NCBI RefSeq assembly: GCF_044324875.1
Contig: NZ_CP172185.1
Length of the DNA: 64,000 nt
Source of the DNA: Escherichia coli
GTDB taxonomy: Bacteria > Pseudomonadota > Gammaproteobacteria > Enterobacterales > Enterobacteriaceae
Strand: one strand, 5' to 3'
In this document: piece after piece, positions 54,494-56,454 of the stretch
Position numbering within the stretch: position 1 is the stretch's first letter
Layout: each line of letters opens with the position of its first letter
The notes under the pieces: generated by a model
What the model was told of the DNA's origin: nothing
Databases searched by the model: none
Seen by the model: the letters and a program-made list of their open reading frames with translations, nothing else
Position numbers and translations under genes: made by a program

Positions 54494-54575
54494 CGTCCTG
54501 TGATTGTGCCGGATGCGATGTAATTGAACTGCACCCCAAATGTTGGACATAATCTGACATCTGAAGGTGCAGTTT

Positions 54576-55097
54576 ATGAAACATTCATTTGAAGTAAAAC
54601 TTGCCGCTGTAAATCACTACCTGGCCGGTCATGCAGGCATCATTTCTACGGCAAAACTCTTTCAACTTTCTCACACCAGCCTCTCACACTGGATTAATCT
54701 TTTTCTTCTTCACGGTCCTCGGGCACTGGATTGCAGACACAAGCGTAGCTATTCTCCTGAAGATAAACTTTGCGTGGTTCTTTATGCTCTCGGGCATTCT
54801 GAGTCTCTACCCCGGGTAGCTGCCCGGTTTAACATTCCCAGCCACAACACGGTTAAAAACTGGATAAAAGGCTACCGCAAATCTGGTAATGAGGCCTTTA
54901 TCAGGCGCTGGAAGGAGAAAAGCATGACCCGTTCTGATGATACCCATGAAAACGAGGCAAACATGACGCCGGAAGAGATGAAGAATGAGCTGCGTTATCT
55001 TCGCGCAGAAAATGCATATCTGAAAGCCATGCAGGAGCATCTCCTGGAAAAAAAGCGCCAGGAGCTGGAGAAAAAACGAAAGTCATCCGGAGCCTGA
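54576..55097 (+). CDS. IS3-family transposase OrfA (HTH/leucine-zipper part)
   Basis: ORF track 54567-55097 (GTG); ATG at 54576 with AAGGTG RBS; product MKHSFEVKLAAVNHY... Confidence 0.8.
   Translation: MKHSFEVKLAAVNHYLAGHAGIISTAKLFQLSHTSLSHWINLFLLHGPRALDCRHKRSYSPEDKLCVVLYALGHSESLPRVAARFNIPSHNTVKNWIKGYRKSGNEAFIRRWKEKSMTRSDDTHENEANMTPEEMKNELRYLRAENAYLKAMQEHLLEKKRQELEKKRKSSGA
55049..55055 (+). other. programmed -1 ribosomal frameshift slippery heptamer A_AAA_AAG (OrfA to OrfB)
   Basis: AAAAAAG lies in the orfA zero frame within the 54950-55097 overlap with the orfB frame. Confidence 0.6.
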
Positions 55098-55201
55098 GGT
55101 GCGGACACTGCCAGTCTGACCTGTTAAAGGCTGCAGGGCTGGCCAGAAGCACGCTGTACTACCAGCTGTCACTGCAGAAGGCTAAGGACAAGTATGCTGA
55201 T

Positions 55202-55924
55202 GTGAAACAGCTCATAGCCTCCATCTTCCATGAACACCGGGGATGTTATGGGTACCGGCGGATCCATTGTGAGCTTCAGAAAAGAGGTCTTAAGTTCAGT
55301 GGCAAAACGGTGCGAAAACTGATGCAACAGCTCGGCCTGAAGTCTCCTGTGCGCCTGAAGAAATACCGGTCTTACCGGGGAAATATGGGACTCGCTGCAG
55401 AAAATATCCTTCAGCGGCAGTTCAAAGCGGAAGCTCCCTGTGAGAAATGGGTGACAGATATCACCGAATTCAGGGCTGGCGGACAAAAACTGTACCTGTC
55501 CCCGATACTTGATTTGTTTAACGGGGAAATCGTGGCGTGGGAAACGGCCTGCAGGCCTACAGAGGAGCTGGTGAAGCGGATGTTAAATAAGGGGCTGGAA
55601 AGCCTTGCTGAAGGGGAGAAACCGCTGCTCCACAGTGATCAAGGATGGCATTACCGGATAAAAAGTTATCAGTCCGCCCTGGCGGACAGAGGGTTAGTGC
55701 AGAGCATGTCGCGCAAGGGCAACTGCCTTGATAATGCGGTAATGGAGAACTTCTTTGGTCACCTGAAAGAAGAAATGTACTATCGCCGGGACTACAGAAA
55801 TGTAGAAGAGCTGGAAAATGCCGTTAACGAATACATAACTTACTGGAATCAAAAAAGAATAAAACTCAGTCTTGGGGGACTCAGTCCGGTAGAATACCGG
55901 ACTGAGCATCAAAAAGCCGGTTAA
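55202..55924 (+). CDS. IS3-family transposase OrfB (DDE integrase catalytic part); frame open from 54950, probably expressed as OrfAB fusion by -1 frameshifting
   Basis: ORF track 55202-55924 (GTG); -1 frame relative to orfA; product contains rve-like DDE region (WVTDITEF ... LHSDQGWHY ... NAVMENFFGHLKEE). Confidence 0.75.
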   Translation: MKQLIASIFHEHRGCYGYRRIHCELQKRGLKFSGKTVRKLMQQLGLKSPVRLKKYRSYRGNMGLAAENILQRQFKAEAPCEKWVTDITEFRAGGQKLYLSPILDLFNGEIVAWETACRPTEELVKRMLNKGLESLAEGEKPLLHSDQGWHYRIKSYQSALADRGLVQSMSRKGNCLDNAVMENFFGHLKEEMYYRRDYRNVEELENAVNEYITYWNQKRIKLSLGGLSPVEYRTEHQKAG

Positions 55925-55980
55925 CTGAAACTGTCCAGGTTTTGGGGTTCAGTTCAAATCATCTATCCGGCATACAGTAA

Positions 55981-56454
55981 CTAATCTCTCAACACCGCTC
56001 CCGGATATCCCAGCTGCCGCCAGGCTTCATACACCACGACCGACACCGCATTGGACAGGTTCATGCTGCGGCTGTCCGGCACCATTGGAATGCGAATTTT
56101 TTGTTCAGCGGGCAGGGCATCGAGAATGCTTGCTGGCAGGCCGCGCGTTTCCGGGCCGAACATCAGATAATCGCCATCCTGATAGCTTACGGCGCTGTGA
56201 GCAGGCGTACCTTTCGTGGTGAGGGCAAACAGGCGCTGGGGATTTTCTGCTTCGAGGAACGCGCGATAGTCATGATGACGCGTAACGGCGGTAAACTCGT
56301 GATAGTCCAGCCCCGCGCGGCGCAGGCGCTTATCGTCCCAGGCAAATCCCATCGGTTCGATGATATGCAGACGAAAGCCGGTATTAGCGCAAAGACGGAT
56401 GATGTTGCCAGTATTTGGCGGAATTTCTGGTTCGTAAAGTACGATGTTTAGCAT
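55981..56454 (-). CDS. trmL: tRNA (cytidine/uridine-2'-O)-methyltransferase TrmL
   Basis: 157-aa SPOUT-family [29 protein letters not shown]. Confidence 0.9.

What the first reader, a model, noticed from the sequence alone, without database searches (positions are those of the whole stretch)
54500..55985. IS3-family element inserted at the apex of a REP-like palindromic unit between cysE and trmL
Removing the 1432-bp element and one copy of the AAT duplication reconstitutes a hairpin-forming palindrome (TGCCGGAT gc GATG t AAT CATC t ATCCGGCA), so the IS sits in the loop of a palindromic unit. Size, 3-bp target duplication and PU-specific targeting match what I recall for IS1397 (and ISKpn1). 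This is a strain-specific polymorphism and may affect termination or stability of the cysE and trmL transcripts that converge here.
Basis: partly seen in the sequence, partly recalled or inferred. Interest (0 to 1): 0.5.

Follow-up and report, generated by a model that had tools for sequence, protein, structure and literature searches.

The report
IS1397 inserted in a REP hairpin
This is an intact copy of the known E. coli insertion sequence IS1397, sitting where that element is known to insert: the loop of a small repeated palindrome (REP/PU) between cysE and trmL; it is an ordinary, lineage-specific polymorphism.

Summary

- **Element.** Window 54525-55956 is a 1432-bp IS3-family element. 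It has 25-nt imperfect terminal inverted repeats (TGAAC...GTTCA) and an AAT target duplication at 54522-54524 and 55957-55959.
- **Identity.** It is 99.9% identical to elements RefSeq annotates as "IS3-like element IS1397 family transposase". It looks intact: orfA, an A AAA AAG -1 frameshift site, a 449-aa OrfAB, and a D-60-D-35-E integrase core. OrfB is 51% identical to IS150 InsK, against 32% for IS3 and 22% for IS2.
- **Target.** Removing the element and one AAT gives exactly the empty cysE-trmL site of K-12 and other strains. That site is a hairpin 28/35 identical to the published E. coli REP consensus. One E. coli lineage has a near-canonical REP (34/35) at this position.
- **Other copies.** Five of six other IS1397 copies examined also sit in REP loops, with 3-4 bp duplications.
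- **Distribution.** The site is occupied in 134 of 5,426 complete E. coli genomes and empty in 5,284. The carriers appear to be one lineage.

Effects on cysE and trmL expression are untested. Nothing here is new.

The parts
53672..54493 (+). cysE (serine O-acetyltransferase). Its TGA stop is at 54491-54493, 11-13 nt before the REP stem.
   Evidence: ORF list; RefSeq annotation of identical loci.
54507..54524 (.). Left (5') arm of the split REP/PU, TGCCGGATGCGATGTAAT, including the left copy of the target duplication.
   Evidence: Sequence; alignment to empty sites; 28/35 identity of the rejoined unit to the published E. coli REP consensus.
54522..54524 (.). Target-site duplication, left copy (AAT).
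   Evidence: Sequence; junction analysis.
54525..55956 (+). IS1397, complete, 1432 bp.
   Evidence: 99.9% identity over 100% of its length to RefSeq 'IS3-like element IS1397 family transposase' loci. It is the only copy in the window.
54525..54549 (+). Left terminal inverted repeat (IRL), TGAACTGCACCCCAAATGTTGGACA.
   Evidence: the repeat finder I1; similarity to the IS150 ends.
54576..55097 (+). orfA (173 aa, two HTH_28 domains).
   Evidence: ORF list; PGAP CDS start in identical copies maps to 54576; Pfam.
55049..55055 (+). A AAA AAG, the -1 programmed frameshift heptamer, in the X XXY YYZ register of orfA.
   Evidence: Sequence and translation. PGAP annotates 'programmed frameshift', and the 1349-nt joined CDS corresponds to the 449-aa fusion.
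55055..55924 (+). orfB frame (the OrfAB C-terminal part): HTH_21 plus the rve DDE catalytic core, with D295, D355 and E391 of OrfAB.
   Evidence: NCBIfam NF033516 at 329.8 bits; Pfam rve 7e-21; motif positions.
55932..55956 (+). Right terminal inverted repeat (IRR).
   Evidence: the repeat finder I1.
55957..55959 (.). Target-site duplication, right copy (AAT).
   Evidence: Sequence.
55957..55975 (.). Right (3') arm of the split REP/PU, AATCATCTATCCGGCATAC.
55981..56454 (-). trmL (tRNA 2'-O-methyltransferase). Its TAG stop is at 55983-55981, 6-8 nt from the REP stem.
   Evidence: ORF list; RefSeq annotation.

Best explanation
An intact copy of insertion sequence IS1397 (IS3 family, IS150 group) transposed into the loop of the single REP/palindromic unit in the 52-bp spacer between the convergent genes cysE and trmL. 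It duplicated the 3-bp AAT of the loop.

**Shown by sequence:**
- orfA encodes a 173-aa protein with helix-turn-helix domains.
- A -1 ribosomal frameshift at A AAA AAG fuses it to orfB, giving a 449-aa OrfAB transposase with an RNase-H-like DDE core.
- The element has all these parts intact.
- Its target preference for REP loops is seen again in five of six other copies examined.
- The insertion is shared by about 2.5% of complete E. coli genomes.

**Inferred from what is established for the IS3 family and for IS1397:**
- Transposition goes by copy-out/paste-in through a circular intermediate.
- Target choice is made by the transposase itself, recognising the REP.

**Inferred from this analysis:**
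- The carriers look like one lineage, so this was most likely one ancestral event inherited vertically.
- Because the element lies at the 3' ends of both genes, it interrupts no coding sequence.
- It destroys the REP hairpin that both mRNAs would otherwise carry just after their stop codons.
- In transcripts reading in from cysE, IRL can pair with the orfA ribosome-binding region, which would limit activation of the transposase from outside.
For: **Identity**
- 99.9% over 1432/1432 bp to RefSeq IS1397-labelled elements. Matches occur in 3,485 of 5,426 genomes, and 1,707 have a place covering at least 80% of the query.
- One synonymous difference (54626) from the copy at the same site in strain ECA64, and one or two differences from copies at other sites.

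**Family**
- NF033516 scores 329.8 bits against a cutoff of 160.
- Pfam finds HTH_28 twice, HTH_21, and rve/rve_2/rve_3.
- DDE residues lie at D295, D355 and E391.
- The frameshift heptamer and the 449-aa fusion match PGAP's joined CDS.
- OrfB is 51% identical to IS150 InsK, 32% to IS3 InsF and 22% to IS2 InsD. The ends resemble those of IS150.
- PMC6963479's table lists IS1397 as 'IS3 ssgr IS150', 1432 bp, with 4-bp repeats.

**Target**
- The empty site in K-12 and CFSAN018748 equals the reconstituted palindrome.
- It is 28/35 identical to the REP consensus of PMC1525189 Additional file 13, where IS1397 is drawn at the same apex position.
- Strain GN04275 carries a 34/35 canonical REP at this very site.
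- Five of six independent other IS1397 insertions (barA|gudD, ugpB|livF, plsC|parC, ybbJ, ssuB|pepN) are in REP loops with 3-4 bp duplications.
- PMC1525189 states that REP-specific insertion is proven experimentally and that the transposases appear responsible for it.

**Distribution**
- 134 genomes are occupied, with identical junctions in those listed. 5,284 are empty.
- 135 genomes are at least 99% identical over the surrounding 25 kb.

**IRL/RBS pairing**
- An 11-bp stem forms between 54525-54535 and 54566-54576, inside a fold with z = -3.93.
Against: - The ISfinder/GenBank reference sequence of IS1397 could not be aligned directly. Identity rests on PGAP's naming plus the size, duplication and target behaviour reported in papers.
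- The primary IS1397 papers are not in the held library.
- Activity of this copy is untested.
- The window palindrome departs from the REP consensus in its upper stem (GATG/CATC instead of GGCG/CGCC), and only one unit is present, not a multi-unit BIME.
- One IS1397 copy (strain GN25, in a type VI secretion cluster) has neither a duplication nor a REP, so targeting is not absolute.
- Single origin is inferred from counts (134 against 135), not from a phylogeny.
- The promoter-like match in IRL is no better than chance: 1 found against 1.9 expected.
Confidence: 0.95

Rival explanations
1. The element is a different REP-targeting IS150-group element, such as ISKpn1 or an unnamed relative, and not IS1397.
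For: The ISfinder reference was not available for direct alignment. NCBIfam HMMs resolve only to 'IS3 family'.
Against: - It is 99.9% identical over its full length to over a thousand loci that RefSeq names IS1397.
- Its 1432-bp length equals that of the IS1397 entries in PMC6963479.
- The host is E. coli, and the target is the E. coli REP type shown for IS1397 in PMC1525189 Additional file 13.
Confidence: 0.02
2. The palindrome is just a private bidirectional terminator-like hairpin, not a REP/PU, and the IS landed there by chance.
For: - The upper stem differs from the consensus.
- There is a single unit, not a BIME cluster.
- The K-12 record held here shows no REP feature at the site.
Against: - The held K-12 record shows no REP feature even at malE-malF, the classic REP site, so the missing annotation is uninformative.
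- Identity to the REP consensus is 28/35 (29/35 in K-12), including the GCCGGATGCG head and, in K-12, the ATCCGGCCTAC tail.
- Another E. coli lineage has a 34/35 canonical REP at the same place.
- Five of six other copies are in REP loops.
- No T-run follows the hairpin on either strand, and the terminator scan finds nothing there.
Confidence: 0.04
3. The polymorphism reflects repeated independent insertions into a hot-spot REP, not one ancestral event.
For: IS1397 is REP-specific and is present at several copies per genome: up to 40 matching places per genome here and up to 11 copies in PMC7314097. The same REP could therefore be hit more than once.
Against: - All listed carriers have the same position, orientation and junctions, at 99.7-99.8% identity over 2435 bp in one piece.
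- The number of carriers (134) nearly equals the number of genomes at least 99% identical over the surrounding 25 kb (135).
Confidence: 0.1
4. The copy is a dead relic that looks intact but no longer transposes.
For: The insertion seems old enough to be shared by a whole lineage.
Against: - No frameshift, stop or truncation is present.
- Both IRs are complete.
- There is only one synonymous difference from sister copies, and the same genomes hold 4-8 near-identical copies at different sites, which indicates recent activity of the family.
Confidence: 0.1

Closest known systems
IS1397 (IS3 family, IS150 group; E. coli; Bachellier/Clement/Wilde et al., cited in PMC1525189)
   Same: - 1432 bp, 99.9% identical to RefSeq-labelled copies.
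- 3-4 bp duplications.
- Insertion at the apex of E. coli REP/PU hairpins.
- orfA/orfB with a -1 frameshift.
   Different: Nothing of substance. This copy has one synonymous substitution (54626) relative to sister copies. Its target is a single, somewhat diverged REP, not a unit of a multi-REP BIME.
ISKpn1 (Klebsiella pneumoniae)
   Same: An IS3-family element that targets palindromic units, with specificity attributed to its transposase (PMC1525189).
   Different: It is a different element in a different host and prefers the Klebsiella type of PU. It was not compared by sequence here because no reference was available.
IS150 (E. coli K-12, insJ/insK)
   Same: - Same subgroup.
- OrfB 51% and OrfA 28% identical.
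- Similar ends (TGTACTGCACCC...GTTGGAC against TGAACTGCACCCC...GTTGGAC).
- Similar size (1443 against 1432 bp).
   Different: IS150 is not known as a REP-loop specialist. Its sequence is only distantly related at the DNA level.
IS621 (IS110 family)
   Same: It also inserts specifically into E. coli REP sequences (PMC1525189).
   Different: It belongs to an unrelated family. From my own knowledge, it uses a DEDD recombinase and selects its target by RNA-guided recombination. The element here uses a DDE transposase with a frameshifted OrfAB.

Membership tests
IS1397 | Near-identity (ISfinder practice: at least 95% nucleotide identity) to the reference element. | tested here: met
   99.9% over 1432/1432 bp to many RefSeq loci named 'IS3-like element IS1397 family transposase'. 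This is a proxy, because the ISfinder/GenBank type sequence itself was not available.
IS1397 | Length of 1432 bp with short (3-4 bp) target duplications. | tested here: met
   The element is 1432 bp with an AAT duplication. IS1397 entries of 1432 bp with 4-bp repeats appear in PMC6963479. Other copies show 3-4 bp duplications.
IS1397 | Insertion into the loop or apex of E. coli palindromic units (REP). | tested here: met
   - The empty site is the hairpin.
- The apex position matches PMC1525189 Additional file 13.
- Five of six other copies are in REP loops.
IS1397 | Transposition activity and transposase-determined target choice. | not testable with these tools
   Known only from the literature (PMC1525189 citing Clement 1999 and Wilde 2001, 2003).
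IS3 family | Transposase with a DDE (rve) catalytic core matching the family profile. | tested here: met
   NF033516 scores 329.8 bits against a cutoff of 160. Pfam rve scores 7e-21. D295, D355 and E391 have 59 and 35 residues between them (positions 60 and 36 apart).
IS3 family | Two overlapping ORFs fused by a -1 programmed frameshift at an A AAA AAG-type site. | tested here: met
   The heptamer lies at 55049-55055 in the orfA register. The -1 frame is open to 55924, giving a 449-aa fusion. PGAP notes 'programmed frameshift'. The frameshifting itself is not demonstrated.
IS3 family | Imperfect terminal inverted repeats ending 5'-TG...CA-3'. | tested here: met
   The ends are TGAACTGCACC... 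and ...GGGTTCAGTTCA. The arms are 85% complementary.
IS150 group of IS3 | Closer to IS150 than to the IS3 or IS2 group transposases. | tested here: met
   OrfB is 51% identical to InsK (bit score 309), 32% to InsF (112) and 22% to InsD (32). The 'IS3 ssgr IS150' label appears in PMC6963479. The IS51 and IS407 groups were not compared.
REP / palindromic unit (PU) | Match to the E. coli REP consensus (GCCGGATGCG...ATCCGGCCTAC), imperfect palindrome, extragenic position. | tested here: met
   - 28/35 identical in the window, 29/35 in K-12 and 34/35 in GN04275 at the same site.
- Hairpin of -21.5 kcal/mol, z = -5.15.
- It lies in the 52-bp cysE-trmL spacer.
BIME (cluster of REP units) | Two or more PUs in alternating orientation with defined linker motifs. 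| tested here: not met
   The 52-bp spacer holds a single unit. This is an isolated REP, not a multi-unit BIME.

The most novel reading that the evidence does not exclude
In the empty state the REP hairpin begins only 11-13 nt after the cysE stop codon and 6-8 nt after the trmL stop codon. From my own knowledge (Liang, Rudd & Deutscher 2015, alluded to in PMC6815119), a REP that close to a stop codon can stall terminating ribosomes and lower the yield of the upstream protein. If so, splitting the hairpin with IS1397 would raise CysE and/or TrmL output in this lineage. It would also add antisense read-through from the transposase into trmL. The insertion would then be a regulatory allele and not a neutral marker.
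Probability: 0.1. Interest if true: 0.3.

Novelty: already known. Interest (0 to 1): 0.08.

Why it matters
It matters little beyond annotation.

- It is a clean, textbook example of IS1397's REP-loop specificity.
- It is a convenient lineage marker, occupied in about 2.5% of complete E. coli genomes.
- It destroys a REP hairpin shared by the 3' ends of two convergent genes. This gives a natural occupied/empty pair for testing what such REPs do for mRNA 3'-end stability or translation termination.

Tried and rejected
- **Primary IS1397 papers** (PMC94167, PMC95333, PMC169884, PMC135288) and Liang et al. 2015 (PMC4427526) are not in the held library. Literature support therefore comes from secondary papers.
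- **REP annotation in the K-12 record.** I looked for a REP feature at cysE-trmL and found none. The same record shows none at malE-malF either, so this is uninformative and was dropped.
- **Regex for full REP units in the window.** A strict pattern found nothing. Relaxing to half-sites found only two short GCCGGATG...CATCCGGC hairpins elsewhere.
- **Promoter and terminator scan of 54300-56200.** The one promoter-like site in IRL and the one terminator-like site are no more than shuffles give. They are not used as evidence.
- **Structure downstream of the frameshift site.** Folds are only modestly better than shuffles (z about -2.2), so I make no claim of a stimulatory structure.
- **Rfam and tRNA scans.** Nothing was found at the locus.
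- **Not done.** Scanning the large genome or metagenome collections seemed not worth the cost for a known element.

Full report
**1. Observation**

Reading 54300-56200 shows cysE ending at 54493 (TGA). The spacer CGTCCTGTGAT follows. Then come TGTGCCGGATGCGATGTAAT, a block starting TGAACTGCACCCCAAATGTTGGACA and ending TGTCCAGGTTTTGGGGTTCAGTTCA, and finally AATCATCTATCCGGCATACAGTAA. The stop codon of trmL on the minus strand is at 55983-55981.

- The block is 54525-55956, 1432 bp.
- AAT is repeated directly at 54522-54524 and 55957-55959.
- The repeat finder gives terminal arms of 26 nt, 85% complementary.
- No second copy of the element exists in the window.
- Joining the flanks and dropping one AAT gives a 34-nt imperfect palindrome. 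It folds at -21.5 kcal/mol, z = -5.15, with 0 of 200 shuffles as stable.

**2. What the element is**

*Reading frames.* The plus strand carries orfA (54576-55097, 173 aa). An overlapping -1 frame stays open to 55924. The heptamer A AAA AAG sits at 55049-55055 in the X XXY YYZ register of orfA. Slipping there gives a 449-aa OrfAB. This matches the 1349-nt joined CDS, noted 'programmed frameshift', that PGAP annotates on sister copies.

*Family.* NCBIfam's IS3-family model scores the orfB part at 329.8 bits, against a cutoff of 160. Pfam finds two HTH_28 domains, HTH_21, and rve/rve_2/rve_3. The catalytic residues lie at D295, D355 and E391, the classic D-60-D-35-E spacing.

*Subgroup.* Against K-12 elements, OrfB is 51% identical to IS150 InsK, 32% to IS3 InsF and 22% to IS2 InsD. 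The termini resemble IS150's.

*Identity.* A megablast of the 1432 bp against 5,426 complete E. coli genomes returns full-length matches at 99.9%. All are annotated 'IS3-like element IS1397 family transposase'. A published IS table lists IS1397 as 'IS3 ssgr IS150', with 1432-bp entries and 4-bp repeats (PMC6963479). The element is IS1397.

**3. What the target is**

The empty site exists. In K-12 and in strain CFSAN018748 the cysE-trmL spacer is 52 bp and contains exactly the reconstituted palindrome with a single AAT.

The unit compares with the E. coli REP consensus printed in Additional file 13 of PMC1525189 (TGCCGGATGCGGCGTA|AACGCCTTATCCGGCCTAC, with IS1397 drawn at the bar) as follows:

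| Sequence | Identical columns |
|---|---|
| Window unit (IS removed) | 28/35 |
| K-12 | 29/35 |
| GN04275 | 34/35 |

- The head (TGCCGGATGCG) and the ATCCGGC core of the tail are identical in all three. K-12 and GN04275 carry the full consensus tail ATCCGGCCTAC, whereas the window unit reads ATCCGGCATAC.
- The IS sits at the equivalent apex position.
- Strain GN04275 therefore has a near-canonical REP at the same site. Strain 4314 has a longer variant. This is a genuine, itself polymorphic, REP locus.
- It is a single unit, not a multi-unit BIME.
- The K-12 record held here shows no REP feature at the site. It shows none at malE-malF either, so that absence means nothing.

**4. Is REP-loop insertion a property of the element?**

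I fetched the best-scoring IS1397 copy from nine other genomes. These gave six distinct sites.

- Five sites (barA|gudD, ugpB|livF, plsC|parC, next to ybbJ, ssuB|pepN) are in the loop of a REP-type hairpin with 3- or 4-bp duplications. One of them is in the opposite orientation relative to the REP.
- The sixth, in strain GN25 inside a type VI secretion cluster, has no duplication and no REP.

This agrees with the literature statement that REP-specific insertion of IS1397 is experimentally proven and attributed to the transposase (PMC1525189).

**5. Distribution**

- A 2435-bp query (IS plus 500 bp on each side) is covered at 80% or more in 134 of 5,426 genomes. Every listed hit is one piece at 99.7-99.8%.
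- The 600-bp empty-site query is covered at 80% or more in 5,284 genomes.
- The ECA64 copy has identical junctions. It differs from the window by one synonymous base in the IS (54626) and three bases in cysE.
- 135 genomes are at least 99% identical over the surrounding 25 kb. That is nearly the number of carriers, which suggests one lineage and one ancestral insertion. No tree was built, so this is an inference.
- No complete genome in the collection is identical to the window.

**6. How it works**

*Shown:* all sequence parts needed for an IS3-family element are intact.

*Established for the family (PMC5009743):* OrfA alone is a DNA-binding regulator. The frameshift product OrfAB is the transposase, and frameshift efficiency sets the transposition rate.

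*From general knowledge of the IS3 family, not tested here:* copy-out/paste-in through a circular intermediate.

*Inferred here:*
- In RNA that enters from cysE, IS bases 54525-54535 pair with 54566-54576. That stretch runs from the last base of the AAGG Shine-Dalgarno to the A of the ATG. The stem is 11 bp, in a fold with z = -3.93. Such pairing would keep external transcription from driving transposase synthesis.
- The IS's own promoter is not identified. The one consensus match in IRL is at chance level.

**7. Consequences for the host**

- No coding sequence is interrupted, because the insertion lies at the 3' ends of two convergent genes.
- The REP hairpin is lost. In the empty state it starts 11-13 nt after the cysE stop and 6-8 nt after the trmL stop.
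- It has no T-tract on either side, so it is not a canonical intrinsic terminator.
- REPs are known targets and barriers for 3' exonucleases (PMC12320835) and are reported to influence translation termination (PMC6815119).
- Whether the insertion changes cysE or trmL expression, or produces antisense RNA into trmL, cannot be decided from sequence.

**8. Verdict**

Novelty: already known. Interest is low. Its only residual value is as a lineage marker and as a natural occupied/empty pair for studying REP function at convergent gene ends.

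Noticed in passing
window 55880-55906: A perfect 12-bp inverted repeat with a 3-nt loop (CTCAGTCCGGTA gaa TACCGGACTGAG) lies inside the 3' end of orfB. It dominates the local RNA fold (z = -4.96). It could protect the 3' end of the transposase mRNA or act as a barrier to transcription entering from trmL. Its function is unknown.
   Followed up: partly
L008 (E. coli GN25, NZ_CP139196.1 3830705-3832136): This IS1397 copy sits between a DUF4123 gene and vasI in a type VI secretion cluster. It has no target duplication and no REP at the junctions, and its left end overlaps the annotated DUF4123 CDS. 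Possible causes are a REP-independent insertion, or a rearrangement between two copies.
   Followed up: partly
L021, L022, L002 (cysE-trmL spacer of strains 4314, GN04275, K-12): The REP at this site is itself polymorphic among E. coli lineages. There is a K-12/window form (upper stem GATG/CATC, 52-bp spacer), a near-canonical REP (GN04275, 54 bp) and a longer form (4314, 61 bp).
   Followed up: partly
L024 (E. coli N73, NZ_CP189493.1 ~100650): In this strain a Mu-like prophage (Mor activator and gp16 family genes) is inserted at the very 3' end of cysE. This alters the CysE C-terminus and separates cysE from trmL.
   Followed up: no
E. coli genome collection: 3,485 of 5,426 genomes have some IS1397 match, but only 1,707 have a place covering at least 80% of it. 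Roughly half of the positive genomes therefore hold only fragments, mostly at 95-99% identity. This may be a widespread conserved remnant.
   Followed up: no
window 24086-24111 and 28871-28896: Two short hairpins are built from the REP arm motif (CGCCGGATGaaaagtCATCCGGCG and GCGCCGGATGgcgtacCATCCGGCAT). Each lies between convergent ORFs. They are not full REP units.
   Followed up: no
window 30991-31029 (+): A JUMPstart RNA element (Rfam RF01707, 55.2 bits) lies upstream of what looks like the waa LPS-core operon. This is the expected, ordinary feature.
   Followed up: no
window 60442-63729 (-): A 1095-aa ORF lies next to lldP. It is annotated in relatives as a YadA-like trimeric autotransporter adhesin. 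Matches over this 25-kb stretch break into 2-3 pieces here, which suggests a variable repeat region.
   Followed up: no
window 55071-55076: A second A-run (GAG AAA AAA CGA) lies 16 nt downstream of the A AAA AAG frameshift site, still within the orfA/orfB overlap. It is not in canonical heptamer form.
   Followed up: no
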